IMG/VR virus record: IMGVR_UViG_3300031801_000004
Location: 1 to 38,395 of that record
Source of the DNA: a virus
Taxonomy: Duplodnaviria > Caudoviricetes
Direction: 5' to 3' (one strand)
DNA: 38,395 nucleotides
Shown here: positions 6,949-37,909 of the stretch, one piece after another
Layout: each line of letters starts with the position of its first letter
Position numbering within the stretch: position 1 is the first letter of the stretch
Program-made: the position numbers and the translations under genes
Notes under the pieces: model-generated
The model's input: only the letters and a program-made list of their open reading frames with translations
Told to the model about the DNA's origin: nothing
Database searches by the model: none

Positions 6949-7809
6949 TTAGGAAAAAATTAGATTGCTGACCTGCGGTGCGTTACTGTTTTGGATTGAT
7001 ATTTGCATGTCCGAGTACGACTCGAATAAGAAGAGGTTTTCAAGGCGATTGTCTCCCATGTCACCATTGATGTGCCAAATCGGCTCATCAGACCATACCA
7101 AGGCGCGCCCGATAACAGACTCCACGATCACCCTGTGTTCAAGTCTGTATTTCTGTGCATCGTCACACCAGACATGAACACCTGACTCGTTTTGCCATGT
7201 GCCACCACGGTAAGACGGAGAGTGTTCCCCTACAGTCCACTGGTACTTACATGAGTTACTGCAGAACCTAGGAGGATTGTTGACAAACCTTAGACGCCGT
7301 TCAAAGCCACTTCCGCACTGCTCGCATTTGAACACGCACTTTTTAATTCGCGAGTCATTCGCGCACTTCGGAGAGCAGAAGGGTCGGGCAGAACCTTTTG
7401 TGAGGTATGCTTCAAACTCGCTCCCACACCAATTGCACTCGCTGACGACTTTTGTCCCGCGAACGGCCGCCCAACATACACGAGAGCAATACTTAGGCCA
7501 TACACCATGATCCGCTTTACCTTCAAATGACTTGCCGCAGTTAGCGCATTCCAGCGTCCTTCTCTCTGCTCGTCGAACCCCTCCCGAACATGCGAGGCTA
7601 CACCATTTAGCGGTTGCCACTCTCCCCCGACATCCTACACGAAACTCTTTTCCGCACTTTATGCACGTTGCCGTGAGGACGCCGTATGGATACCTGCAGG
7701 AATGCGAACAGTACCTGGGTGGCTTGGTGCGACCTTTGCGATTCCGCACAGTAACACCGCATGTTTCGCAACGTGAGTCTGTGGTGGATGATGTCACTTT
7801 GCTTATCAT
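6949..7809 (-). CDS. HNH endonuclease with ~5 tandem CxxC...YCSxxC zinc-ribbon repeats
   Basis: Repeated CxxCG..F.....(Y/F/W)CSxxC units. C-terminal EHR..E..IGR.L...HINGD..DNRLENL (HNH_3-like). ATG 7809 overlaps the cas12m-like stop (ATGA). Confidence 0.8.
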   Translation of the reverse strand: MISKVTSSTTDSRCETCGVTVRNRKGRTKPPRYCSHSCRYPYGVLTATCIKCGKEFRVGCRGRVATAKWCSLACSGGVRRAERRTLECANCGKSFEGKADHGVWPKYCSRVCWAAVRGTKVVSECNWCGSEFEAYLTKGSARPFCSPKCANDSRIKKCVFKCEQCGSGFERRLRFVNNPPRFCSNSCKYQWTVGEHSPSYRGGTWQNESGVHVWCDDAQKYRLEHRVIVESVIGRALVWSDEPIWHINGDMGDNRLENLFLFESYSDMQISIQNSNAPQVSNLIFS

Positions 7810-9521
7810 GTCAACACACACTCGTTCTTGTCGGATGCCCGCATTAAATTGATGCACGCGTTGCGGTCCTGGTCGAAGGTACTGCCACAGTTTACGCAGG
7901 TATGGATAAGCTCTTGCGGATTCACCTCGCCGCTGATCTTGTCGCACACATGGCACGTGCGGGTAATGTTTTTCGCGGACATCTCCTCCACGTCGGAAAA
8001 CGCATTCCGAAGCTTACCCTCAAGAATCGACGGTGACGCCATCCCTTTACGCGCTCTCGCGAGTTTCTTTTCGTCGCTCTCCTCAACCCGCGGCTTTTTC
8101 TGGAACACTCGCCAGTCGATCTTCCCAAGCACCAGGGTTTTGTATTTCCGGCGAAGGTCCCTGGCGAAGTTTCGGTATAGATCAAGTCGCCACGCCTGGT
8201 ACTTGCGGCGGTTGTTTTCCTGCCACTCGTAAAGGTGCTTGTCCTGCTTTCTCCACGATTCTACGGCGCAGAATATGGCCTCGTCGCCCCCAAAGCGTAA
8301 GTCGCGCCACAACAGAGACACTAACGCCAGTTTCGCCTGGGCTCGCCAGTGCGACAGATTATCCAGCCGGCTGCGGAGCCACTCGTAGCCGTCGGCCGAG
8401 GCGGCAGGAAGGCCGTTGCCTGGTTTGTGTTCCTTCATCCACCTCGACAGTTCCTTTTTCATGGTGTCGAAGTCCTTGTCGCGGGTCGACTTCAACGCGT
8501 CACACTTCGGTAAACGCCTGAGGTATGCCGGTGGGATGACCAGCTCGCCCTCCTCTCCGTCAGAGCCAAGCCAATAGGCTGTGCGCATCTCGCCGTCCTT
8601 GGTTCTCCACCCAAGATTCACAGCCACATTGCCTTCGGTCGCATCGTCGGTGCGCGGGAAGCCGTTGGCGGAAGACACGACAAACTGCACGGTCCAGTTC
8701 GTTTTCGTTGCCACGCGGCGAGCAATCAGATAGACCCATTTAATTTGCGACCCGGGGGGAATCTCCCGGTGCACCTCGGAGAGCACTGTTGCCCAGATTG
8801 GCCGTCGACCATCCGAACCAACCCGAATCCATATCCGATGCTTGCGCCCGTCCCGGCGACCGCCAGTCTTCCGCCCAGGTGTCTCGACGGGCTCGATCCT
8901 TATCCTGTTGTCCTCGCAACTCATGGACTGCTCTGGAGAGATGCCCTTTTGTAGCTGCACGGCAATTCGGCCGTCACCACGGAAACGCTTGAACCGAGGA
9001 GGGGCGCCGCTCTTCCGTTTCGACATCGCCTGCTCAACCGCCAGGTACGTTCCCCAGTACAGATTACAGTCCTTGCGTGCCTGAAGCATCAACTTCTTGT
9101 CGGACTCGTCTATCGCGATCTGACTGGATTTGAACTTGGGATTCTCGAACGTGGCCTGTCGCAGCTCTTTCCGGCGCGCACGCAGGACCTTGAGGTCTTT
9201 CCGGGCTTGCGTTAGCTCTTCTCGTAATTCCTTCGGCGCGGCCGATCTCTTGCGAGACGCTTGGCGGAACTTCTTCACTTTCACCTCAAGCTCGTCAAAT
9301 TCCAACTCCCTTGCTTCAATTGCTTCCTCGGTTTTCTTTAAGTCGGGACATACCTCACAGGTCAATTCGTCGACCTGCGCCCGACGCTTTAGCTCGATCT
9401 CAACTATCTGGTTGCGGTAGCGGTTCGCATACCGTAGCTGCCTCTGAAGTTCGACGAGATTAGTGTCAACTCGGCAACCGTACACCATGACTTTACTGGG
9501 CAGAGAGTCGTTTCCAAACAC
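7806..9521 (-). CDS. cas12m: Cas12m-like (type V-M, former V-U1) effector with inactivated RuvC
   Basis: 571 aa. Motifs I recognise from Cas12m, in order: QLRYANRYRNQIVEI, long coiled coil, LYWGTY, RFRGDGRIAVQLQ, VHREIP, VAVNLGWR (RuvC-I, D to N), WQENNRRK..RLDLYRNFA, TRTCHVC, CVNCGSTFDQDRNA. GGAG RBS before GTG 9521. Confidence 0.8.
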   Translation of the reverse strand: MFGNDSLPSKVMVYGCRVDTNLVELQRQLRYANRYRNQIVEIELKRRAQVDELTCEVCPDLKKTEEAIEARELEFDELEVKVKKFRQASRKRSAAPKELREELTQARKDLKVLRARRKELRQATFENPKFKSSQIAIDESDKKLMLQARKDCNLYWGTYLAVEQAMSKRKSGAPPRFKRFRGDGRIAVQLQKGISPEQSMSCEDNRIRIEPVETPGRKTGGRRDGRKHRIWIRVGSDGRRPIWATVLSEVHREIPPGSQIKWVYLIARRVATKTNWTVQFVVSSANGFPRTDDATEGNVAVNLGWRTKDGEMRTAYWLGSDGEEGELVIPPAYLRRLPKCDALKSTRDKDFDTMKKELSRWMKEHKPGNGLPAASADGYEWLRSRLDNLSHWRAQAKLALVSLLWRDLRFGGDEAIFCAVESWRKQDKHLYEWQENNRRKYQAWRLDLYRNFARDLRRKYKTLVLGKIDWRVFQKKPRVEESDEKKLARARKGMASPSILEGKLRNAFSDVEEMSAKNITRTCHVCDKISGEVNPQELIHTCVNCGSTFDQDRNACINLMRASDKNECVLT

Positions 9522-9592: not shown

Positions 9593-10283
9593 ACGACTGA
9601 CCGGACACGGCTCGACATGACGTGACTCGACTTGTCTGACCTGACAGAGCATGGCCGGACACGACCGGACAGAACATGACGGGACCCGACTGGACCTGAC
9701 TGCCATGACGCGACTGGACCGAACCCAACAGGACCTGAGACTGACTCGACTGACCTGACGCGACATAACCGGACCTGACGCGATCAGAACTGGACTAGAC
9801 TGACTTGACGGGACCAGACCCAACTGGACCGGGCACAACTTGACTCGACTGACTTGACTCGACTCAACTCGACACGACGCGACACGACTGTCCAGGACTA
9901 GACTGACCTGACGCGACTCTACCGAAACCTGACGACACAGGGCACGACTTGTCTGACCTGCCTCGACTTAACGTGAACACGACGTAACTCGACGAGACTC
10001 GCCTGACCTGACTCGACTCGACCCGACTGACACGGCTCAACACGACCCGACGCGACAGGACTGGACTTGACAAGACCGAACTCAACAGGGGCACGTCTCG
10101 ACTGACAGGACAAAACCTGACCTGACAAAACTCGACTCGACGCGACTCAACTAGACTGACACGACACGACATGACGGAACCAGCCTCGACGAAACCCGAC
10201 TGACTTGACTCAACTTGACTTTACTCGACTTGACTTGACTTGACTTGTCTGACTCGACACGACCAGGCTTGGCACGCCCCGAC
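9593..10283 (-). repeat. Non-coding GTY-NN pentamer array (~126 pentamers in 14 units separated by 4-nt GTCA); candidate guide-RNA array
   Basis: Minus strand reads gtcGG ggcGT gccAA gccTG gtcGT gtcGA [gtca] gacAA gtcAA... Constant triplet is mostly GTC/GTT and the dinucleotide varies. Separators (plus-strand tgac) at 10250, 10201, 10157, 10103, 10028, 10004, 9954, 9904, 9850, 9801, 9751, 9701 (tgcc), 9637, 9598. Confidence 0.9.
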
Positions 10284-10286
10284 ATG

Positions 10287-10787
10287 TCACACAAGCTCAA
10301 TGTCGTCGATTTCGTTAAACACCAGGCCAAAAATATCAGCATATTCCCTGTACCGGTTCCGCCATCGATTGGCTTCGGAAAGTGCCTTTTTGGCAACCTG
10401 ATCCGATAGCCCCTTGTCTTTCATAATTGTCTGCACAGAGACGTAGCCCGTTTCCACATCGTCCTCTCCGACCTGCACGGTAACACTGTGGAACGCGCGT
10501 GTAGTTTGGGACTTTCCGTTGACGCGGACCACTACCTTTACGTAGGCCAGATATTTACGTGCCTGAAGAACCCTATACGCTCCAGCCGCGGCAGCATCGT
10601 TCCAGACAAACATGTCGTGTATGGGGCTGCCCTTTGGTTTCGCGTATGCAGCCAGTTGCTCGGCTTTCACATGCGTCTGACCGGTCTTCTGCTTAATGTC
10701 CTCGATCACATCTCCCAGCACTTGCGCCTGGTCGTCAGTGATCGGGGCGTGGTTAGACGCCTTGTATCGTTTGCGTCGTTTTGCCAT
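10287..10787 (-). CDS. Conserved-looking phage protein, partner of the RAMP-like gene (166 aa)
   Basis: ATG 10787 with GGGAG RBS. Motif SPIHDMFVWNDAAAAGAYRVLQAR resembles a recurrent phage hypothetical family. Stop lies 3 nt before the array. Confidence 0.75.
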   Translation of the reverse strand: MAKRRKRYKASNHAPITDDQAQVLGDVIEDIKQKTGQTHVKAEQLAAYAKPKGSPIHDMFVWNDAAAAGAYRVLQARKYLAYVKVVVRVNGKSQTTRAFHSVTVQVGEDDVETGYVSVQTIMKDKGLSDQVAKKALSEANRWRNRYREYADIFGLVFNEIDDIELV

Positions 10788-10803: not shown

Positions 10804-10845
10804 ACAAAAAAGGCCGGACCTGCCGCGAGAACGACAGGTTCGGCA
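10804..10845 (-). terminator. Intrinsic terminator-like hairpin between the RAMP-like gene and the partner gene
   Basis: GCCGAACCTGTCG-ttctcg-CGGCAGGTCCGGC (one mismatch, one G-U) followed by CTTTTTT. Confidence 0.6.
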
Positions 10846-10851
10846 GTTGCG

Positions 10852-11598
10852 CTAAGCGGACATCTCGATCTTCTTGAGATCGACGTCAAAGCGACCGTGA
10901 TTGTTACCCTGCCGCTCAGGGCGATCGTCGCCCACGCCAACAGAGAATCCAGCGTGAGTCATCAGGTTGATTATCGCTCCTGGAGTAATCACGTTCGTGT
11001 TGTACTGGACGGTAACTACCGCGCTCCACTTGTCGAATCCCGGTCGGTACCGCAAGTCGGTGCTTCCATTCGGCAACCGAACCGTGTCCGTCCGCATGTG
11101 CGGAACCTTGGACGTTTTAATGGTGACCAATTCCGTGCCATCGCGACTCTCTCGCGCATCGCTGATCACGAACAGCGCACCGCGGCACAGCACCATCGTG
11201 AGCCCATCGACGAATCGGCACGCACTGACGATGCACTTCTTGAAGGCCGCGGCGGGCATTCCGTACACGCATCCCTTTTCCCCCGGATTCCCGCTCGCGA
11301 CATACATCGCTTCCAGGAATTCTGATTTCGGGTCACGCTTCTCCTTTTTGTTCCGCGCCTTACCGGCCTGGATATCCTCCATCATTTTCCGCGCCTTCGG
11401 ACCAAATCGGTGCATGATCAGGTCGTCACTGGCCGCCATGCCGGTGACGGGGACCTGGATCTCCATTCGCTGTACCTCTGGGATTTCTAGCACCACCGAT
11501 TTTCCCTTACCCTTCGCGGTCGACTCCGCGTGGGTGATGTCTCCGTTGCCGTTTTGTGACGCTGACTTGGCTGACTTGACTGCTGCTCTGGCCTGCAT
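10852..11598 (-). CDS. Stand-alone Cas7/RAMP-superfamily-like protein (Vipr-like)
   Basis: RAMP-like motif order: IQVPVTG....LIMH, YGMPAAAFKKCIVSA (compare P.IPgsslKG), RYRPGFDKWSAVVTVQY, and a C-terminal Gly-rich loop AGFSVGVGDDRPERQGNNHGRFDV. Start is ATG 11598 (AAAGG) or GTG 11613. Confidence 0.7.
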   Translation of the reverse strand: MQARAAVKSAKSASQNGNGDITHAESTAKGKGKSVVLEIPEVQRMEIQVPVTGMAASDDLIMHRFGPKARKMMEDIQAGKARNKKEKRDPKSEFLEAMYVASGNPGEKGCVYGMPAAAFKKCIVSACRFVDGLTMVLCRGALFVISDARESRDGTELVTIKTSKVPHMRTDTVRLPNGSTDLRYRPGFDKWSAVVTVQYNTNVITPGAIINLMTHAGFSVGVGDDRPERQGNNHGRFDVDLKKIEMSA

Positions 11599-11643
11599 GG
11601 GTGTACCTTTCACATAGGAGTTAAATGAAGCAAGACAGGAGTA

Positions 11644-11671
11644 ATATTATCAGCACGTGATAATCCGTCAA
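11644..11671 (-). promoter_or_regulatory. Sigma70-like promoter with overlapping palindromic operator
   Basis: TTGACG-16 nt-TAATAT. Inverted repeat ATTATCA-N5-TGATAAT at 11646-11664. Confidence 0.55.
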
Positions 11672-15871: not shown

Positions 15872-16024
15872 TACGACACTCCGTTTGAAGGATTCGGAAT
15901 CAAAAACCAACAGGACCTTATCGCTTACTGCGAAACACAGCAACCCCGAGTCAGCCTTCGATTGTTCTAAGTCTTGGCGGTAGGCTACAATTTGGTCTTA
16001 AGGATGCACGGAAACAAGGGGATT

Positions 16025-19000
16025 ATGATGATCCGATCGCCAAAGGGTGGGATACGAATTGGGGGGCGCAGCTTTCCTTCTGGGATGCAGATCCCGGAGA
16101 AATACCGCCGGCAATTACAATCCTCTCGTCCCGCCGATCCCGGCCAGGGGTCCACTGCGGGAGTCCCGAACCTCGGACGACCTCCAGTCCCTCACGTGGT
16201 CACGTTCAGCGGGATGGTCACGAGCCTGTCGAAGGCCTACCGAAACAGCGATGAGGCTCTGAGGCATAGCGAAGAAAACGCCCACGCTATGTTAAACGAC
16301 CCGGTGGTTTCGGGTCCTCTATTCGGCCGGCAGATGATGACCGCCTTGCTCAACTGGTCCATCGAGACAGAAGACGATAAAGACCCGAAGCTAAAGGCTT
16401 TAGCGGCTGACCTGACCGACATTATGAAGCGCATTCCGGACTTCACGGAGTACCGCCGGTCGCTTATGGAAGCCGTTTGGTACGGTCGCTGCGCCATCCA
16501 GCACGCTTACGGATTCCACACCAACAGGCACGGGACGAAACGGCGAATCATCCGAAAGTGGACGCCGGTCAGCGGGGATAAGCTGCTGTTTCGGTACGAC
16601 GACGGGACCGGAGATTTTGACCCGGACCAAATCGGCGTGCGGATGTCCGCCGCGCATTCAAAACACGACATTGTCGCAGGCGACCGCCACCTAGAGGCCA
16701 CCGGGGAGGGTCTGGGGTACTTTCTGCAGCCGTGGGAACGCAAGATGTGGGTCTTGCACAAGCACATGATCCGGGACGGCGAGTTCGAGGACCCGATTTC
16801 CGGCGGCCAAATCCACGGTGTTGGCCTGCGACACTTCCTTTACTGGGTCTGGTACCAGAAACAGGAAACTCTCGCCCAGATTGCCGAGCTGATCGACCGC
16901 ACGGGCATGGGGTTCACGATCTACTTCTACCCCAGCGGGAACGAGTCAGCCCGTCAGGAAGTCGAGAAGATTTCCAAGGAGCAAGCTCACACGAACGTGA
17001 TCTTGATGCCGTCCGAGGAGAATGACCAATATCGGGTCGAGCAGATTCCCCCCAATACGCAGGGGCTGGAAGTCCTTCGAAGCGTAGTCGAAGACTTCTT
17101 CGGGGACATGATTACCAGGTTCATCCTTGGCCAAACTCTCAGTTCAAAGTCGTCCTCGACCGGCATGAATTCGGGAGTCGCGGACCTGCAGAAGGACACC
17201 CTGAATCACATCATTCGGTACGACGCGATCAAGCTCGAAGAGACGATCACCAGGGATGTTCTCCACCACCTGAGAGACATAAACTTCCCCAAATATCGCA
17301 ACGTCGACATGTGGTTCCGCATTTCGACGAAGTCCTCGGCTCCCCAGGAAGAGCTGTCGGCGATGATGCAACTGTGGCAAATGGGTGCGCGCATCAAGAC
17401 CGCTGACATCTTCGACCGGCTCGACCTGTCAATGCCGGATCCCGACGACCAGCAGCTGTTCAACCCGCAAATCGTCATGCAGATCGACCAGATGGAGCAA
17501 CAGGAAGGAGCACCCCAGGATCCAATGGGCGGCGCGCCGATGGGAATGCCGCAGGACGGGGACAACGACGGGATGGTCGGCGAAGGCACCGAGGAGTTCG
17601 GGGAAGCTGGAGTCCCCGAGCAGATGGACAAGGAGGCCGAGGAGGAGCGAGAGAAAGAGCGTGTATTCGGTCCGATCATGCACAAAAAGACGGACTTACG
17701 CAAGGACATCTCAGACGCCGCGGCCTACACGGACAGAAATCCCAGCGACAGCCAGCGGGAGGCCGGCAACTACAAGAAGGGACGGTTTTGGTGGAACGGA
17801 CTGGAAATCGCCATCGAGACGCCGCGGGGAGCAAGCAGGCGTCCGGAATGGCCGAAGCTGTCGGCACACTACGGATACATAAAGCTCCACGAGAGCGAGG
17901 CGGACGGGGACCACCTGGACGTGTTTATCGGTCCCTCGCCAGAAAGCGACCTGGTCGTCGTAATTGACCAGGTGACCAAAGGAGGCCGCTTTGACGAGCA
18001 CAAGATAGTCCTGGCCTGCACTTCGACAAAAGAGGCCGTCGAACTCTACAAAGACTCATACTCGTCAGGGTTTAAGGTCGGTCCAGTTACGACAATGACG
18101 GTCGAACAGTTCAAATTCTGGCTGACCGACGGTTCGACTAAGAAACCAATCAACGCGCAGGTATCGAGGTACCGCAAGTACGCGAAACAGCTTAGCCTGT
18201 GGGACGACGATGCGCACCCACGCGCGACCGAGCACGTCAACATTGATGGGCGTACCTACGAGTCCGGCCAGTGGGTTCCGAAGGACAAGGCGGCCGAGGC
18301 TACCCCTAAGGAGCAAGAGTCGATCGAGATGGTTGACGAAGAGACCGGTGAGACCGAGCCTTTTGAAGACACGGAACAAGTTGAAACTGACTCAACACCC
18401 ATGGATCCCGGGACAAAGCTTAAGTCCGGCCAGGCCGTTCATGGTTACTACAGCAACGGCATAGACGAGGTTAAGTTTTCTGGGAAGGTCGGAAGCATCC
18501 ATACGGATACGGCTGGTGGTAATTTCAAAACAGCCAGGATTACTCTCGATAATCCTGTCACGATGTCTTCCACGGGCGAGCGAACTGTATTCACGGCCAC
18601 GCTAAGCGACACCAGCGAGCTACACGACAGTAAATTCTCGTCGCAGTCGAAAATGGCAGAGGAAATTGAGGAGTCACCCGAGGAATCCATGCAACTGGAC
18701 AAGAAAGGTCCAGCGGGGCTAACCAAATCCGAGGCGATGGCCAAGGCAATGGAAGGCAGTAATCGTAATGTGGCCAGTTATGACCAGGCCGTTCATGCTA
18801 CCTATCTCTATACCGGAACCTCTTCATCTGATTGGAGTTCCGTTCCAATCAAGGACTTCAGAGATGTTGATGATGGCAATGGTGGACAGGTATCAATGCC
18901 GGAGTTTGATTTCCCTAGCGGCTACAAGCAGGCGGACGTGATTTTCGGTAATGAAGGTGGCAATGTTGGCTCTGGTTCCTGTGAGTTGTGCGGACATTCC

Positions 19001-20056
19001 ATCAAGAACAATTACCACATTCAAAATGATAAAGACAAACTCACGATGCAGGTAGGAAGTGAGTGCGTAACTAACTTTGCTGAGGGAGAGAGTGGAGCCA
19101 AATTGGCGAAAAAGGCCAAGGCTGAAATGAATCGCGACATGCTCCGCCAAGTGTGGACAGCTCGCGATGATCTAGCAAAAGTCTGGGGCGACCAGAACCA
19201 AAAAACTGGCAAGTGGGAAATCAGAAAAGGACAGGTGTACTACAAGATTGCCGCCAGGGATTACCAAAACGAACCCAAGGACAAGCGTTTTGGAGGATTT
19301 GAAAATAAGGATCTGGAACGCCAAGTCAGGCAGCGGTCACATGAAATCGAAAAGTTGTACCAGAGAATCGACAAAGTGGCCAGCAACTCAAAGGGAGATC
19401 CCATCCCGGCTGATGACTACGAGAATGTTACCCAGCGCTGGCATGACAATCGTTCTTATGGTGGAGGACAGGGAGGGTGGCGGACGCAGACGCACAAGAT
19501 GGAAGCTACTGCGGATGGGGTAATTACCCGATGGGCAAAGGCTCGCAAAGATGATGTCCGGGAAGTTTTGGAGCAGGTGGATGAGATTTTAGGACGATCC
19601 GGAACTGACGAAAGGGCGGCCGGTGACGGCGAACAGGATAACACTCCAGAGATTCCCCAAAAGAGCGCCAAGCAGTACGCCAAGGACCTGGACACAGAAC
19701 GGCTCTCGCCGTTGTTCGACGACGGCCACCTCGACCAGGAGACGATCGAGCACCTGCGACAGATAGCCGGCGACTTCATCAGTGGCACGGAGATTCCCCG
19801 GGACGCCGTTGTCGACGTTCAGTTGACGGGGTCGATGTCCGGCTACAACTGGAACAACGGGAGCGACATCGACCTGCATATTATTGTTGACCCCGAGCTC
19901 TTGCTAGCACCCCCCGAACTCCTCTCGGACTATTTTTACAACGTATCGGCCAACTGGAACGCCCGCCATTCGGTGACCATCGGAGGCCACGAGGTTGAAG
20001 TATTCGTTGAGCCCATGAAAGAAACGATCGGAGACCTCTTGGTAGTGGCGACATGA
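16025..20056 (+). CDS. Portal protein (DUF935/Mu gp29-like) fused to inorganic-pyrophosphatase-like, Zn-ribbon and N-terminal nucleotidyltransferase domains
   Basis: Portal: AVWYG, G.GL...YW.W..K, ILGQTLSS. PPase-like: AGNYKKG...IETPRG...HYGYI...DGDHLDVFIGP...FDEHK. CELCG...VGSEC. NTase: LTGSMSGYNWNNGSDIDLHI...EVEVFVE. Confidence 0.85.
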   Translation: MMIRSPKGGIRIGGRSFPSGMQIPEKYRRQLQSSRPADPGQGSTAGVPNLGRPPVPHVVTFSGMVTSLSKAYRNSDEALRHSEENAHAMLNDPVVSGPLFGRQMMTALLNWSIETEDDKDPKLKALAADLTDIMKRIPDFTEYRRSLMEAVWYGRCAIQHAYGFHTNRHGTKRRIIRKWTPVSGDKLLFRYDDGTGDFDPDQIGVRMSAAHSKHDIVAGDRHLEATGEGLGYFLQPWERKMWVLHKHMIRDGEFEDPISGGQIHGVGLRHFLYWVWYQKQETLAQIAELIDRTGMGFTIYFYPSGNESARQEVEKISKEQAHTNVILMPSEENDQYRVEQIPPNTQGLEVLRSVVEDFFGDMITRFILGQTLSSKSSSTGMNSGVADLQKDTLNHIIRYDAIKLEETITRDVLHHLRDINFPKYRNVDMWFRISTKSSAPQEELSAMMQLWQMGARIKTADIFDRLDLSMPDPDDQQLFNPQIVMQIDQMEQQEGAPQDPMGGAPMGMPQDGDNDGMVGEGTEEFGEAGVPEQMDKEAEEEREKERVFGPIMHKKTDLRKDISDAAAYTDRNPSDSQREAGNYKKGRFWWNGLEIAIETPRGASRRPEWPKLSAHYGYIKLHESEADGDHLDVFIGPSPESDLVVVIDQVTKGGRFDEHKIVLACTSTKEAVELYKDSYSSGFKVGPVTTMTVEQFKFWLTDGSTKKPINAQVSRYRKYAKQLSLWDDDAHPRATEHVNIDGRTYESGQWVPKDKAAEATPKEQESIEMVDEETGETEPFEDTEQVETDSTPMDPGTKLKSGQAVHGYYSNGIDEVKFSGKVGSIHTDTAGGNFKTARITLDNPVTMSSTGERTVFTATLSDTSELHDSKFSSQSKMAEEIEESPEESMQLDKKGPAGLTKSEAMAKAMEGSNRNVASYDQAVHATYLYTGTSSSDWSSVPIKDFRDVDDGNGGQVSMPEFDFPSGYKQADVIFGNEGGNVGSGSCELCGHSIKNNYHIQNDKDKLTMQVGSECVTNFAEGESGAKLAKKAKAEMNRDMLRQVWTARDDLAKVWGDQNQKTGKWEIRKGQVYYKIAARDYQNEPKDKRFGGFENKDLERQVRQRSHEIEKLYQRIDKVASNSKGDPIPADDYENVTQRWHDNRSYGGGQGGWRTQTHKMEATADGVITRWAKARKDDVREVLEQVDEILGRSGTDERAAGDGEQDNTPEIPQKSAKQYAKDLDTERLSPLFDDGHLDQETIEHLRQIAGDFISGTEIPRDAVVDVQLTGSMSGYNWNNGSDIDLHIIVDPELLLAPPELLSDYFYNVSANWNARHSVTIGGHEVEVFVEPMKETIGDLLVVAT

Positions 20057-27263: not shown

Positions 27264-28844
27264 ATGGGCACAGTCCTTTCATACGCTGAGACATATTCTG
27301 ACTTATCCGATGAGGCGTCCAGGACCCTGCAGGATATGCGTCCCAGATGCCCCGGTTACCAGGGGTGGCTCCGAAAGGGAGATGTCGACGACGATGACGA
27401 AGCTCTAGAGGAATTTCTTGAATCTGAGCACGGCATCACGGTTCGCGACGATGGCCGGGTGGAATTCGACCACCTGACGGCGCGCAACCGGAAAATCATC
27501 GGCGACCACCCGGTAGTTCTGAACCATCACACCAGCGACGCGCTCGAAGAGTCCATTCTGGAACGAGGGCTGCTCCGCCGCAGCAAAGACGGCGTCCCGA
27601 GCACAAACCCCCATGTCAACAGTGGCGCCGGCGTCTATCTGACGACCGAGCACACGGGTCCCGTTGTCGATGGCTACCATTCCGTCGCCACCGGTATGCA
27701 CGGCGGTGGACCACGGACGTTCGAGGTTGAGGCTTACCTGGACGAACTCCAGCACGATCCGGACGACGAGGACCTGTCAGTTGGGAAACGGCAGTTCGTT
27801 GCTCCGTCCATCGCTCCGGACAAGATTCTCAATGCGCTGCGCAAAGAGGGGCGGCCAGAGCTTTATACGCCCATGTCGTACGCCAGGACTCCCGGCGAGA
27901 CGATGACGAAAAATGGGGTGACCTATGTCCTTAACGAAAACCACAGGTGGGCAAGCCAAGAACGTTCGCCAACGTTAGCTAACGTTAGCCCGCATGAAAC
28001 CGAACGTTCGGTTGGTAAAACCGCACGTGCGGTTCCTGCCGCGGCGGCATCACAAAAGACGCTTGAAGAATTGAGGCTGTCGCATTTACTGAAGCAAGCG
28101 TCCGATGCCGGCATAATGGAAGCCTGGGATTCTCTTAGCGATTATGCCGGTATAGAGCCCAATCCCCACGCCACCGAGGATTACCAGGCACTTAAAGGGT
28201 TTCTGGAATCTCACGATGGATACCAGAAATACGTTAACGACCAGAATATTCGCCGGGAAAACGCCAACCTGGCGAGAGATCGAATTAAGGACCGGATTGG
28301 TTATTTCATCGAGGAATCCGGGCTAGAGCCAGAGGCAGCCAGCCAATACCAAAAAGCCTCCGAATCAGTTCTCGACTACATGACCCATGACGCGTTGCGG
28401 CTGTTCGCCCGGAATGTCCAGGGAATCAACTACCACGGAAACCTCGCTTCCCTCCAGAAATCACACCATAAAATGAGCGGAAGAGACGCATCCAATGTTG
28501 GAGGATTTTGGTCCTGGCATCCCAGTGAAGACGGCGGAGATTTGCATTTAGACGGCGGACACGACACGGACGAACATACCCGATTTACCGTTCGGCACCT
28601 GTACGCACACGAGTTTGCACATGCCATTGACGGTCAGCAGAAGCTATCCACCCAGCCTGACTGGGTATCTGCCTGGGAATATGAAATTAAGACCTCAGTA
28701 CATCCGCCCAGCGAATACTCGCAGACAAACGCCGTAGAGGGATTTGCGGAGTTCGGTCGTCTGGTTCTGACGTCCCCCGCGGACGCACGCGAGAACTACC
28801 CGGACTGCTACGATTTCTGGAAGAAAAACGGTATCGCACAATGA
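27264..28844 (+). CDS. Polyvalent protein: ADP-ribosyltransferase-like domain + zincin metallopeptidase
   Basis: N-terminal LNHHTS...ILERGL...GVYLT (ART-like). C-terminal HEFAH...SEYSQTN..EGFAE (HExxH zincin). Confidence 0.75.
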   Translation: MGTVLSYAETYSDLSDEASRTLQDMRPRCPGYQGWLRKGDVDDDDEALEEFLESEHGITVRDDGRVEFDHLTARNRKIIGDHPVVLNHHTSDALEESILERGLLRRSKDGVPSTNPHVNSGAGVYLTTEHTGPVVDGYHSVATGMHGGGPRTFEVEAYLDELQHDPDDEDLSVGKRQFVAPSIAPDKILNALRKEGRPELYTPMSYARTPGETMTKNGVTYVLNENHRWASQERSPTLANVSPHETERSVGKTARAVPAAAASQKTLEELRLSHLLKQASDAGIMEAWDSLSDYAGIEPNPHATEDYQALKGFLESHDGYQKYVNDQNIRRENANLARDRIKDRIGYFIEESGLEPEAASQYQKASESVLDYMTHDALRLFARNVQGINYHGNLASLQKSHHKMSGRDASNVGGFWSWHPSEDGGDLHLDGGHDTDEHTRFTVRHLYAHEFAHAIDGQQKLSTQPDWVSAWEYEIKTSVHPPSEYSQTNAVEGFAEFGRLVLTSPADARENYPDCYDFWKKNGIAQ

Positions 28845-31800
28845 AAACCATGCTACCCGAGATTTTTTCTGGTTCAGTTGATACTGACGGAACGCATGCG
28901 GACATCCTGTTAACGGCGGGTGCCGCGAGCAAACCAGGCGAACCTCTGCGGTATGACGAGGAGTTCGAAGGGAAGCATCCGAGGGGTGGAGGCGGAAGAT
29001 TTCAGCCGGCAGACTTCGACCATTACATGGACGTCCGGAAACGCAACGAGTCCATGCGTCTGCCGCGAGCCACGGACAGCGACTTTGACCGCGCCGCGCA
29101 CGAACCGCGACCGTGGGACGAAAAGCGGACAAATCGGGCAAAGAAGTTTTTCAATCGGGATAATGTCCACCTGGTGGATATGCCATCGCACTGGATGGCC
29201 GTCTCAGAGCGAGACATCGCCGACGACCGACAGCAGCGACTGGATGATATCGGAGGAACCGATGACCCCATCATGGCTGCAATCGACCACAAAGGTGGCG
29301 ACCATATTTACACGGTCGACGACGGCAACAACCGTGTCCACTGGGCACAGAAGAACGGACAGGAATCTGTCCCGGCATTCATTCACGGCGACCAGGAGGA
29401 TATCGGTCAGCTAAAACAGAGGATTGCAGATTATCTCGCCGGAAATGACAGGATCCCGCCGACCACACACAGCGAAAAGGGAGAGCCCCTCCGCTACGAC
29501 GAGCAGGGCATGCAGCCGGGCGATACGAAAAGCGAAAACGGCGTCACCTACGTCTTGAACCAGAATCACCGCTGGACCCGCCAAGACGACGAACCATTCT
29601 CCTTGGCCGTCCAGCCGGCCGTACTCCCCAAGAAAGCCACATTCGACGACCAGGGCGGACAACAGGGCGGTCTATTCGAAACGGGCGGTCTTGCCGGGCA
29701 GATGGACCTGTTCAAGCGGCCAGGCACACCGGACGACTTGGTCCAGAAGGGCGCCGGCGGTGGAATTATCGCCGAGCCGAACGAACAACCGAACGCGACG
29801 AACGAACTGAACTCTCCAAGTCCTGATGATGAAAGTAGTTCCGATGCGCCGCGTGACGAACAACCGAACGAACAAAAGCTGCGCAGCCAGGTCCAGGATA
29901 ACACCCACACGATGGGGAGCGTCGTAAGCGGCCAATTCCCCGTTGGTGTTGGGTCGGCTCCTAAGGACTCGAATCGGGCTAAGCAGCACGGCCTGCAGGC
30001 GATAACGGTTAACAACCATGTCGTTTACGGAAAGGATGAAAACCAGGGCAAGATTATGGAGGTCGCCGGCCTCCTCGAAGACGGTAAGTACGGCACAACC
30101 GAATTCTCACGCGCGCTGGGCTATACGGACGAGGAGATCGATACCTACAAGGAGTTTCTGGCGGCCACCGGCAAGGAACACCTGATTAACGACGAAGCCC
30201 ATTATTCTCCTGGGTCGCAGATTAATCTTCCTAACAACGCGATCACCGCATACGGCGATAACGGCGTCGACCTGACCTACCTCGGAGAGAAGGACGGTCA
30301 CGCTTACCTGGAGTGGTCAAGCAAGACGTCACCGAAGGGGTTTCAGATAGTCAAGGGTGGATCGGCAAATGATGCAGTGGTTGGCAATCCAGAAACCTGG
30401 GGGCGCGCCATAAAGATGCCGGAAGAGTCCCTGAAAGGATTCGTCAACGACATGCAGGGGGTGATCGAGATTCAGCCCAGCAAGCACCCGGAAATCCAGG
30501 CAGTCAGCCGCGGCGACTCCGAATTGCTTGGGAAAGGCCACGAGGCCGTAGCATGGAAAGTTGGCGACAAGATCGTCAAAAAAGGGACTACCGCGCCTTT
30601 CGATGCTCTCGGCGGTGGGTCCACCGGCCAGGGGCACAGAACACCACAGGAGGCGATGGACTCGATCGGCAGCGATCTGGCGAACACCAGGCGGATGCTC
30701 AAGGAGGGTATCCCGGGCATTCAGACAATGACGACCTCGGTCGAGAAGGGCGCCAACGGCGCACCCGACGCAGCATTCTCAATAACAGACGCGCTCGACA
30801 TCGACACCAGAATGACCCGCGCGCAGCTAGACCAGGTGCGCGATTCCATTCGAGCCCTGCACAAAAACGGCTGGACGCTAAACGACAAGCTGCAGGTCGG
30901 TCTTGGGAAGGACGGAAAGCCTTATCACTTCGATATCGGGCTCGCCAGCAAGGAAGGCAGTGAGTACGACCGCGCCGACGATCTTACCTATCTGAGGATG
31001 GTTTACCAGGACCACGGGGAAGATTTACTGCCATGGGGAGAGCAGGCAGAGAACACGTTTAACGAGTTCCAGTTTGTCGTAAATGACTTCGGCGGGCACG
31101 TCGAAAGCGACAAGATGCTGGTGGACGATGCGAAATCCGCGAATCGAGCCCGCAAAGGGATCATCGACGACGACCCGTCCCGCGCAGCGGAGCTTAATAA
31201 GTCGTTCTCAGACGCGTTAATCAAATCTGGCCTGGACCCGCTCGATTACTTGGAAAAGAGCGAATTCAGCACGGGTCCCAAGGTCCAGAAGTCTCTCTTC
31301 CGTCGCTGCCGGATTGCCAAAATCAGGTACGAGAAGGAATCTGCCGGCGGCGGCTGGATGAGTCTCGGTGGCGCTCCCGTGTTCGTGGGAGAGAGTGGGA
31401 AGATTGAAATGGGCTGCCCGGGACTCCGCGGGGAGACACTCAGCAGCCTGGATGACGACCCCGGCGCGCGGGCGAAACGCCAGAAGGAGGCCGAGCAGGC
31501 CGGTTGGGAATCCCAGGAGACAAAGGACGCCAGAGACACCCACGAGGAGGCCAAGGAGAAGTTAAAGGATTTCGTGGTCCTCACCCGACTCGGAGACAAA
31601 ATCTATGTTTTTGGAGGAGATGCGGCGGTTCTAAACGACCTCACGCAAGTCGGCGACGGAGAAACGGCCAACTTCGACACCGAGGACCTGGACCACCATA
31701 TGGGTCGATTGGTCGATGCGGGGCATCGGGTCGCTATCGTCGACCGCACCGAGGAGGGAGACCCAGACCTCGATTCGGAGCTTGATGGTGAGGCCGAGGA

Positions 31801-34800: not shown

Positions 34801-37800
34801 CGAACTCCCAGACCGCGACCGAGACATTCTGTCGATGCGGTTCGAACAGGGGTTGAGCTTTAAGGAAATCGGGGAGAAGTACGGAATCAGCAAGCAGGCC
34901 GCGCAGAAGGCCGCCGCGAAGTCGATGAAGATTCTGCAGGCCAATATCGGAGGTGGACAGTACGCCAAAGACGGCGACCAGTTGATCCAGTATGCGAATC
35001 AGCTGATGTTCGACTTCCCGGAGCACAACCCTGGAGACACGAAAACCGAGAATGGAATCACGTATGTTCTGAATCAGAACCATCGCTGGGAGCGAAAGGA
35101 TAAGACCACTTCCGACCCAGACCTTGCGACCACACCGCAAAGCGACACCTCAAGCGTATCTGAGGCATTAGAGCCGAATCGTGCGACCACCTTGCAGCCA
35201 CCTGATAAGACCACCTCTGAGACAGGCCAGCCCACTCCCGAGATGGCCGCCCAAGACTGGCAAGAGAACGGCGTTCGCGCGAAAGCGTTCAAGTCTTGGT
35301 TCGGTGATTGGGAGACGGACCCCGAGAACTCATCCAAGGTGGTTGATCCGGAGACTGGCTCGCCGCAAGAGCAGCATGAGACGAGTGCGGTGATTAACGA
35401 AGACGGCCAGCCCGTCCGCGTCTACCACGGAACCGCCAAGGGAGGCTGGGGCACTTTCGACAAGTCCAAACTGGACAACGCCGAAAACCTACTCTATGGA
35501 GACGGCTTCTATTTCACCGAAGACCTAGAACTCGCCAAAACCTACAAAAACAAGGGCGCGAAACCTGTTTTTAACGGTGACACTGCAGGACTGGCGGAGG
35601 CCGTAGACACACATCTGGACTGGCTGCGCGCGCAGAGCGAAGCCCCCCGCATGATCCGCAATTTCGAGTATGCAGCGGAAAGGCTACAAGGCGGAGATTC
35701 GGCCTGGCTCGACGACGAGGATTCTGCCGCACGCAACCACCTGAAAATGTGGTTACCAGCCCACCTCACGGAGAAGTATTGGCAGCAGGACCAGAGCACC
35801 GCCGAAGTCAAGGACGTCTTTCTGAACATCCGAAACCCATACGACGCCGAGACCGGCGCCCAGGTTATGCACCTGCTGCCCGAGGACGCGCAGACCCGCA
35901 TCAAAGAGCAGCAAAAGACGCTGATCGAATCCAAACGAGGCCACCAAGTAAAGGCCGGAGAAACCGCCGCCTACAACCGCGACGAGGTGAAGAACTACGC
36001 CCGCATCGCAGCCGAGGGCGGCTTCAAGGTGCCCGACTGGAAGCAGTTCAAGGAGGCCGCCAGGCAGGCCGAGCACGAGGCCAATATCTCGCCCAGCAAT
36101 CTAGGACAACTCACGCCCGAGCAGCGCACCCAATACGCCGGACTAACCGGCAGCCAGAAGAGCGCGGTCAACGAGTGGGTAGAATCGAACGAGAAGGCCG
36201 CGGCCAGCCAAACACTCTCCAACGCCTTCGGCGCAGAGGTTGAAGGTCTACGCGCTGGCAACGTCCACTACGAGCAACTCAGGGGAGCACTCGGAGGCAA
36301 GGGGAACACGAACGCTTGGCTGGCGAAAAACGGATTTGACGGAATCACTCACATCGGCGGACAGGTGACTGGCGGAAAACACCACCGTGTTTGGATCGCC
36401 TTCGAGCCTAATCAGATCAAGTCGTCCGACAACCAAGGCACGTTCGACCCTGACGACGAGCGGATGACGTACGCCGCGGGCGGTCAGTCCCCAGAGCTTT
36501 ACCGCAAGTCCGTTCTGCGTTACATGCGTGACGAGTACCCTGAATACTACGCCAGAAAATACAAGCCGAGCCCAGGACAGCTTGGTCTATTCGACACGCC
36601 ACAGCATCAAGTAGGCGACACAAAAACCGAGAACGGAACGACATACAGGCTCAACCAGAATCATCGGTGGGAACTGGCTGATAAGGAGGAACCGCAAGCC
36701 GCGGGGGCTCAACAGCCAGGTGATGGGCAGGCGTCGCGTGAAACCGTATCGCAGCTGAGTCCAGAATCAGAGACACATGATTCCGCTGACCAGGTCGACC
36801 CATCTGCCGATTGGAAACAAAACGGCTTCCGCGCGCAGTCCTTCAAGTCTTGGTTCGGCGACTGGGAAATAGATCCGCCCAACGCGTCAAAGGTAATCGA
36901 TCCAGAGAGTGGCGAGCCGCAAGAAAACTACCACATGAGCCAGGTGAAGGGCGAAGATGGTAAGCCGGTGCAGGTTTACCATGGGACGCCTTCTGGCGGC
37001 TGGGATCGATTCGATAAGGCAAAGTTAAGCAAAGCAGATGATCTGTTGTACGGACCAGGATTTTACTTTACAGAAGACGAGACGATTGCGACGGAATACT
37101 CCGATAATCGGCCAACGGTCGATTATCACCCAAAGGACTGGGCACCGATTGAAAGCCAGATTCTCTCGTTACTTCCGCCAGACTACAAACTCCAAGAGAA
37201 GCCACGTACCGGTGATGGATTCAATGACGGCGCAGAACTCAACCTCATCTACAAGACAGGGCAGGCTGCTCATAAGAATGTGCGACTAGCGCATGAGTCC
37301 ACGGCGTCTCCTGGAAAATGGACTCTAAATCAGGTGACGATTGAAGATGACCTGCCGATGCGGGACGAGGCTGTGATGCAGCCGCTACATGACTACCTCA
37401 AGGGGTTAATGCCTCAGAAGGAAGTCAAGAACGTTTACCTTAACATTCGCAACCCGCTGGATATCGATGGGAAGTTGAGTGCAAGCGAAGCGTCGCGAAT
37501 CGCCGACGTCATGGAATCTGGAAAATGGGAAACAAAACAAGGGAGTTTCGGGACTGTCAGGGAGACGGTCGACTATCTGCGAGAAGACCACGGCGGACAT
37601 GCCGTATCGTTCGCCTACACCGAGCTGGTTCGGTTTTTTGGCGGCAAAGACAGGGCGGCAGAAATGCTACAAGCAGCTGGCTACGACGGCATTACCCACA
37701 TCGGCGGGAACATCATGGGCGGCGGACATGAGCACCGCGTCTGGATCGCCTTCGAGCCTAATCAAATTAAGAGTGCGGATAACTCCGGCACCTTCGATCC

Positions 37801-37909
37801 GGCCGACGACCGCATGAAGTACGCCGAGGGCATAGAGACCTCACACCAGCCAGGGGAAACCAAGTCGCGCAACGGCGTCACGTATGTCTTAAACCAAAAC
37901 CATCGCTGG
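27894..37909 (+). repeat. Dispersed 19-codon peptide repeat G(D/E)TKxxNGxTYxLNxNHRW, 5 copies
   Basis: Copies at 27894-27950, 29519-29575, 35033-35089, 36614-36670, 37853-37909. Much of the divergence is at synonymous positions. Confidence 0.9.

What the first reader, a model, noticed from the sequence alone, without database searches (positions are those of the whole stretch)
9593..10283. The array has a second level of grammar: 4-nt GTCA separators every ~50 nt define 14 units
Seen: the 5-nt phase is broken by a 4-nt GTCA (once GGCA) at spacings 49, 44, 54, 75, 24, 50, 50, 54, 49, 50, 50, 64, 39 nt. Most units hold 8-10 pentamers, and the irregular pairs sum to ~100 (75+24, 64+39). Several units contain one 6-nt step. 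No two units share an NN string, which argues against slippage expansion. Inference: separators mark processing or filament-capping sites, yielding ~14 separate guides of ~18-20 informative nt, similar in information content to a CRISPR seed/spacer.
Basis: partly seen in the sequence, partly recalled or inferred. Interest (0 to 1): 0.85.

Follow-up and report, generated by a model that had tools for sequence, protein, structure and literature searches.

The report
Staggered VIPR guide array, GTCA junctions
In this phage, a five-base repeat array behind a CRISPR-Cas7-like gene is divided by fixed four-base GTCA slips into guide-sized blocks; related phages have the same slips and gain or lose such blocks whole, so each block is likely a separate guide RNA of the known VIPR gene-silencing system, and one block is predicted to aim at a recombinase gene of rival mobile elements.

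Summary
The array lies behind a vipr gene (same PHROG family as SUSP1 Vipr; Csm3/Cas7 fold) and a vap-like gene, so this is a VIPR locus. The 'second grammar' is the staggered, 1-nt-overlap vrRNA array drawn in fig. S18 of the VIPR preprint, whose staggered form was not among those confirmed by RNA sequencing. It is family-wide: 71 of 71 array-bearing Vipr clusters have G(G/T)CA junctions (median spacing 54 nt). Sister arrays gain and lose whole units, and four GGY units decode (1-nt skip) onto other phages' vipr genes, with the match stopping at the junction. Here the core is GTY, not GGY, and the tryptophan that stacks on G2 is replaced (0 of 6 GTY arrays keep it, 59 of 65 GGY arrays do). 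Unit 10 matches a Planctomycetota serine-recombinase family at 17 of 18 bases, a candidate target only; four other units scanned gave none. Cutting at the junction is inferred, not shown. Verdict: a new member of a known kind, with useful testable detail.

The parts
9593..10283 (-). Staggered vrRNA array: GTY/NN pentamers (cores GTC 95, GTT 21, GCC 8, GGC 5 of 140 steps) in 14 blocks
9598..10253 (-). 14 four-base junctions; first base on the minus strand at 10253, 10204, 10160, 10106, 10031, 10007, 9957, 9907, 9853, 9804, 9754, 9704 (GGCA), 9640, 9601
9801..9849 (-). Unit 10: its 1-nt-skip decode matches a serine recombinase gene family at 17 of 18 bases, skip on the wobble position (candidate target)
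10852..11613 (-). vipr gene (253 aa RAMP); Asp230 in place of SUSP1 Trp178
   Evidence: phrog_4652 E 5.5e-22, same family as SUSP1 Vipr; hhalign 98.4%; Csm3-like fold E 8e-7
10287..10787 (-). vap-like accessory gene (166 aa), ending where the array begins
   Evidence: phrog_15946; phmmer hits in 99 of 133 Vipr loci, window included; not alignable to SUSP1 vap1
11643..11671 (-). sigma-70-like promoter match upstream of vipr (a consensus match only; as many sites as in shuffles)
10806..10844 (-). GC hairpin plus U6 between vipr and vap (terminator-like; would have to be read through, or the array has its own promoter)
   Evidence: z -2.1, 5 of 200 shuffles as stable; not listed by the terminator scan
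7806..9521 (-). Cas12m-like gene right behind the array, with no CRISPR array found in the window; probably not part of the VIPR module

Best explanation
This is the repeat array of a phage VIPR locus, and its fixed G-U-C-A|G register slips likely mark where one long transcript is divided into about 14 separate guide RNAs that would each steer a Vipr filament to a different DNA target. Shown: gene identity, the array grammar, its conservation across the family, whole-unit gain and loss in relatives, and unit-bounded decoded matches in GGY relatives. From the published type II mechanism: one Vipr protomer binds each pentamer, buries the three core bases and presents NN, which pairs with DNA while every third target base is skipped, and binding represses transcription. 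Inferred: a 4-nt step cannot seat a protomer in register, so the filament ends there and the exposed C-A step is cut (by Vipr, the vap protein or a host RNase), giving guides of mostly 40-65 nt with about 16-20 informative bases and no structured tail. Also inferred: loss of the G2-stacking tryptophan lets this Vipr read GUY cores. Odds: units are independent guides 0.9; RNA physically cut at or next to the junction 0.65; unit 10 really targets the recombinase family 0.45.
For: Vipr identity. 71 of 71 array-bearing clusters carry a GGCA/GTCA junction; 514 of 655 four-base steps are of this type. Position 4 is A in 556 of 668 four-base steps against 1973 of 6385 five-base steps, the next base is G in 532 of 536, and 63 of 78 four-base steps stay G(G/T)CA in the 10 arrays where T outnumbers C at position 3. 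88% of 444 spacings are 39-75 nt. An exact junction-to-junction 79-nt indel separates L188 from L189, and 5 of 12 junction-containing gaps between L025 and L052 are exact. Shared NN segments between loci: 18 against 0.4 in shuffles, 12 of 18 inside one unit in both arrays, about 0.21 expected. Of 469 clean units against 855 kb, 4 reach E<0.001 with a 1-nt skip, 0 with skips of 0, 2 or 3 and 0 in three shuffles; all 4 lie in another locus's vipr gene, and the adjoining unit matches only 1-5 of 10-12 bases. Unit 10: 23 of 34 IMG/VR hits are one serine recombinase family; SUSP1 VIPR silences a satellite recombinase.
Against: No RNA ends are known for any staggered array; the preprint confirmed other architectures only. 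The four strong decoded matches are all in GGY arrays and each tests only one junction; the best of 31 GTY units reached only E 0.058. Four of five window units scanned gave no credible target. For unit 10: the ninth NN half-mismatches in all 23 hits and in 120 of 120 homologs; no other unit hits 8 carrier records, 272 kb; the phage's host is unknown and its closest named terminase comes from an Acidobacteria bin; unit 9 matches the upstream DNA at 5-5.9 of 12, above chance, so that boundary is not clean. NN similarity within units is no higher than across junctions. 9 of 21 L025/L052 gaps are pentamer-level and 7 junction-containing gaps are imprecise. No conserved hairpin or longer handle at the junction.
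Confidence: 0.65

Rival explanations
1. The array stays one long RNA; each junction only breaks the Vipr filament into independent segments (beads on a string), each still reading its own target.
For: All modularity evidence fits equally; no structured processing signal found; no nuclease is common to the loci examined.
Against: The fixed C-A, kept even in GGT/GTT-dominated arrays (63 of 78), is more specific than a register slip needs; type II guides are discrete RNAs of about 100 nt.
Confidence: 0.22
2. The junction is only a DNA-level scar or recombination site left when new units are inserted, with no role at RNA level.
For: Exact junction-to-junction indels; 6 of 9 junction-free gaps between L025 and L052 end right before a junction.
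Against: A scar would decay, yet position 4 is A in 556 of 668 four-base steps across distant phages; a 4-nt step necessarily breaks the one-protomer-per-pentamer register. It can be true in addition to the best explanation.
Confidence: 0.08
3. The adjacent Cas12m-like protein cuts or uses this array.
For: The gene starts about 70 nt behind the array and no CRISPR array was found in the window.
Against: No Cas12m hit in the 132 other Vipr loci searched, most of which have the same grammar (flanks of 3-3.5 kb or less); the one phage homolog found has an ordinary CRISPR array and no Vipr; a near-copy record of this phage is rated only 36% complete.
Confidence: 0.03
4. A decaying microsatellite whose 4-nt steps are random single-base deletions.
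For: Unit 2 holds a GTCAA run; pentamer-level indels exist in relatives.
Against: 0 of 20,000 shuffles as regular; 655 four-base against 39 six-base steps; fixed C-A-G; tied to vipr genes on the same strand.
Confidence: 0.02

Closest known systems
VIPR systems with staggered vrRNA arrays (bioRxiv 10.64898/2026.04.26.720920, main text and legend of fig. S18)
   Same: vipr + vap + pentamer array in a phage; successive vrRNAs overlap by 1 nt, which is what a 4-nt step is; unit size close to the 9-16 repeats reported.
   Different: Core is GTY, not GGY (it may fall under their YNNNG class). The text and legends read do not name a junction sequence ('GGCA' and 'stagger' occur 0 times in the third preprint); the figures and data files could not be seen and may show it. 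Staggered arrays were not among the forms confirmed by sRNA-seq. Type number not assignable.
Type II VIPR of phage SUSP1 (10.64898/2026.04.26.720920, .720927, 10.64898/2026.10.15.759431)
   Same: Homologous Vipr; D177, R179 and R138 equivalents kept (D229, R231, R190); a recombinase as target class.
   Different: SUSP1 guides are separate cassettes with a structured 3' tail; here units are fused and tail-less; W178 is Asp; a different vap family.
Non-canonical VIPR-like arrays, e.g. GAC/NN (bioRxiv 10.64898/2026.10.21.760802)
   Same: GAC/NN is this array's motif read on the other strand, next to Vipr-like folds.
   Different: The passages seen give no higher-order units ('stagger' occurs 0 times), no strand and no protein determinant.
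Class 1 CRISPR arrays (Cas6-processed pre-crRNA, Cas7/Csm3 filament)
   Same: RAMP fold; one transcript, many guides; unit-wise gain and loss.
   Different: No long direct repeat, no spacer, no cas6, cas1 or cas2 seen; the information sits in alternate dinucleotides.

Membership tests
VIPR | Stand-alone RAMP (Vipr) gene | tested here: met
   phrog_4652 shared with SUSP1 Vipr; hhalign 98.4%, E 5e-15 over 68 columns; AF2 model pLDDT 90.7 matches Csm3/Cas7. Direct tblastn did not reach SUSP1.
VIPR | RNA-contact residues H17, R138, D177, W178, R179 | tested here: met
   R190, D229, R231 aligned; H68 by inspection only; W178 is Asp230, in step with the GTY core.
VIPR | Accessory vap gene | tested here: met
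   166-aa gene with hits in 99 of 133 Vipr loci; not SUSP1 vap1.
VIPR | Pentamer repeats: fixed triplet plus variable NN (GGY or a related consensus) | tested here: met
   GTY/NN, all 16 NN used; related consensus allowed by the preprints.
VIPR | vrRNA expressed and bound by Vipr | not testable with these tools
   No RNA run was available to lay.
VIPR | 1-nt-skip DNA targeting | tested here: inconclusive
   Met in GGY relatives (4 of 469 units); in the window one candidate of five units scanned.
VIPR, staggered architecture | Units overlapping by 1 nt at regular guide-length intervals | tested here: met
VIPR, staggered architecture | Processed RNA ends at the overlap | not testable with these tools
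   needs small-RNA sequencing
VIPR type II (SUSP1) | Each guide with its own conserved structured 3' tail | tested here: not met
   Units abut directly; the array's 3' flank folds no better than shuffles, z 0.34; contrast.
CRISPR array (for the Cas12m-like gene) | Direct repeats of about 36 nt with spacers | tested here: not met
   None among the repeats listed for the window; no Rfam match.

The most novel reading that the evidence does not exclude
The G(G/U)CA|G slip is a sequence-specific, hairpin-free processing signal read by the Vipr filament itself, a single RAMP acting as both Cas7 and Cas6, and it is also the site at which whole new guides are inserted. The Trp-to-Asp change makes this GUY system orthogonal to GGY systems, so that rivals' orphan GGY guides cannot hijack it, and unit 10 silences the integrase of a Planctomycetota mobile element.
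Probability: 0.2. Interest if true: 0.82.

Novelty: new member of a known kind. Interest (0 to 1): 0.45.

Why it matters
The architecture is in print as a drawing, but how staggered VIPR arrays are cut and how new guides arrive is open. This locus and its relatives give concrete handles: a fixed C-A-G junction that can be mutated, natural whole-unit indels, a one-residue candidate for G versus U core choice, and a candidate target. A self-dividing array of 14 guides read by one small protein would be a compact multiplex silencer and a model for how multi-guide arrays worked before Cas6.

Tried and rejected
Targets for window units (1-nt skip, exact 8-NN patterns in IMG/VR; 5 of 14 units). U9: 76 hits, 1 extends to 20/20 (0.3 expected), but its skip falls on codon position 1 of a Gly-rich gene, rejected. 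U4: 36 hits, none extends fully. U13: 3 hits, 2 of 8 further bases. U5 3' part: 11 hits, best 4 of 6. U13 in GTDB (9 NN): 11 hits, none extends. Other units on the recombinase gene or its carriers: none; U13 gave 20/24 with a 0-nt skip (E 0.015 before correction for 56 tests), treated as chance. No unit of any other array matches the recombinase at E<0.01. No window proteins are shared with those carriers. Units against Vipr or terminase proteins: no match. Array variants: four seawater runs hold the array unchanged and may be the source of this DNA. No RNA holder listed. Host: not established (a suspected SHD1 domain, recalled, got no Pfam hit). NN similarity within versus across units: no difference. 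Compensation between successive spacings: none. Junction hairpin or longer handle: none in GGY arrays; unit folds are mixed. Cas12m link: rejected. The longer metagenome copy of the contig could not be searched. A recalled likeness of U9's first eight NN to an IS481 transposase motif was not tested.

Full report
Observation. A dynamic-programming parse of the minus strand reproduces the finding exactly: 121 five-base, 14 four-base (13 GTCA, 1 GGCA) and 5 six-base steps, with spacings 49, 44, 54, 75, 24, 50, 50, 54, 49, 50, 50, 64, 39. Shuffling step order never gave spacing as even (CV 0.22 against 0.87; 0 of 20,000, a parse with 13 junctions). Units hold 4-14 pentamers, 9 of 14 hold 8-10, and share no more NN than shuffles. 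The last NN is biased to AG or AA (8 of 14, p 0.002).

Context. The window is a phage contig (terminase, portal) and is the whole record held. On the array's strand lie vipr (10852-11613), a vap-like gene (10287-10787), the array and a Cas12m-like gene (7806-9521). The first protein falls in phrog_4652, as does the SUSP1 protein whose residues match those named in the structure preprint. Profile comparison gives 98.4% over the C-terminal 68 columns, and its model (pLDDT 90.7) matches Csm3/Cas7 chains. The locus is VIPR.

What is in print. I read parts 1-5 of 6 of bioRxiv 10.64898/2026.04.26.720920 plus searched passages of its text and supplement PDF. [quoted passage not shown] S18 legend), and says that only the ribozyme and single-guide forms were confirmed by sRNA-seq. 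Of 10.64898/2026.04.26.720927 I read part 1 of 6 and passages: one protomer per pentamer, W178 stacks on G2. Of 10.64898/2026.10.15.759431 I read part 1 of 8 and passages: SUSP1 VIPR silences a satellite recombinase; orphan guides hit vipr genes in wobble phase. Of 10.64898/2026.10.21.760802 I saw passages: non-canonical GAC/NN arrays beside Vipr-like folds. Two searches listed these four papers only. Figures, data files and bioRxiv supplements were not visible and may already show the junction sequence. Eight of 15 listed earlier notes of this scan were shown and read staggered arrays in other genomes the same way; they are not evidence.

The grammar is family-wide. From 133 Vipr loci (IMG/VR, metagenomes, phages; five copies of the window or of L008 dropped) came 91 clusters at 90% identity. 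71 have an array, 20 show none (many are short contigs). All 71 have at least one GGCA/GTCA junction; outside the window 514 of 655 four-base steps are of this type, against 39 six-base steps. Position 4 is A in 556 of 668 four-base steps against 31% of five-base steps, and the next base is G in 532 of 536. In the 10 arrays where T outnumbers C at position 3, 63 of 78 four-base steps are still G(G/T)CA. Median spacing is 54 nt and 88% of 444 lie at 39-75 nt. The junction is therefore a sequence signal, not just a slip.

Units behave as modules. Sister arrays differ by whole units. L188 and L189 differ by one exact junction-to-junction 79-nt block (seen again in L192/L191). Between L025 and L052, 12 of 21 gaps hold a junction and 5 of these are exact; 9 are pentamer-level, 6 of them ending right before a junction; the L015/L012 gap is imprecise. 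Across 44 loci, 18 shared NN segments were found against 0.4 in 15 shuffles, 12 of them inside a single unit in both arrays (about 0.21 expected); several pairs are close kin, so these are not independent. Against this, NN similarity is no higher within units than across junctions.

Decoding. 469 clean, distinct units (of 882) were scanned against 855 kb of repeat-masked Vipr loci. With a 1-nt skip 4 reach E<0.001, against 0 for skips 0, 2 and 3 and 0 in three shuffles. All 4 lie in another locus's vipr gene and translate as Vipr segments when the skip is put on the third codon base. The adjoining unit matches 1-5 of 10-12 bases; each case tests one junction only (smaller first run). All four are GGY units; the best of 31 GTY units reached E 0.058.

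The window's own units. Five of 14 were scanned in IMG/VR. Four gave nothing credible. Unit 10 gave 34 hits, 23 of them (20 distinct) in one serine recombinase family (Resolvase, Recombinase and zinc-ribbon domains), on the sense strand, skip on the wobble base, 17 of 18 bases. The largest clusters for the other four units were 8, 7, 2 and 2. 109 of 120 homologs fit the first eight NN and none fits all nine; all 10 that carry an organism name are Planctomycetota. Contigs of this family at about 80-85% identity cover the site in the four seawater runs that hold the phage and bridge it in two; those runs may be the source of the window, and the letters at the site were not displayed. Against: five scans gave 92 clusters, so a chance family hit is not excluded; no other unit hits 8 carrier records; the host is unknown; unit 9 matches the upstream DNA at 5-5.9 of 12. 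I give it 0.45.

Core switch. The residue equivalent to W178 is Asp here. It is not Trp in any of 6 GTY arrays (D, D, H, H, M, Q) and is Trp in 59 of 65 GGY arrays; GTY needs 4 changes on a quick tree, at least 2 forced by strong branches (the careful tree did not finish, and two GTY loci were found by a GTC pattern). Six GGY arrays also lack the Trp, so its loss looks permissive, not sufficient. GTY arrays have more six-base steps (11 of 546 against 33 of 6552).

Mechanism. Most likely the array is transcribed on the minus strand, Vipr polymerises one protomer per pentamer, the 4-nt step ends each filament, and the exposed C-A step is cut, giving about 14 tail-less guides that silence rival elements by the 1-nt-skip code. 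Modularity is shown in relatives; cutting, the cutter and the GUY reading are inferred. The main rival is an uncut string of filament segments.

Cas12m. The downstream gene matches solved Cas12m structures (E 3.5e-59). No CRISPR array was found in the window, none of the 132 other Vipr loci has the gene, and the one phage homolog has its own array and no Vipr. A near-copy record is rated 36% complete, so the array may lie elsewhere.

Verdict. Real, well supported as a unit structure, and a new member of a known kind. Interest 0.45.

Noticed in passing
window 7806-9521 (-): Cas12m-like gene directly behind the VIPR array, without a CRISPR array in the contig; two RNA-guided DNA-binding systems side by side. 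RuvC-I and -II acidic residues look replaced (by inspection).
   Followed up: partly
L040 unit 11, L028 unit 4, L032 (second array) unit 2 against L313:15327-15330: A unit shared by three phages with different cores decodes antisense, in wobble phase, onto an HExxH motif (20 of 24, E 0.03), recalled as typical of ImmA/IrrE-type peptidases.
   Followed up: no
L025 4161-7575+, L052 4171-7571+: Very long staggered arrays of more than 60 units running off the fetched locus, with unit gains, losses and an order swap.
   Followed up: partly
L054-L057: Cultured phages (Mycobacterium phage Donkeykong, Gordonia phages UmaThurman and ODay, cyanophage Cy-LDV1) carry staggered GGCA arrays, several annotated as hypothetical genes; these are tractable models for mapping RNA ends.
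   Followed up: partly
L197; L230; window: L197 uses TGCA junctions (9 of 13). In L230 and the window the pentamer after a junction often begins GA.
   Followed up: no
window 29510-29581, 35024-35095, 36605-36676, 37844-37915: Four dispersed 72-nt coding repeats (67-71% alike) in a region with few long ORFs.
   Followed up: no
window 15974-20056 (+): Portal protein fused to an InPase-family domain and further domains, 1360 aa.
   Followed up: no
window 27264-28844 (+): Weak Pfam ATLF-like match below the cut-off (E 0.006), probably a generic zinc-peptidase-like domain.
   Followed up: no
window 10806-10844 (-): Terminator-like hairpin with U6 between vipr and vap.
   Followed up: partly
L326 4289-5860: Phage Rctr197k has a Cas12m homolog, annotated as a transposase, followed by a CRISPR array of about 22 repeats.
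   Followed up: partly
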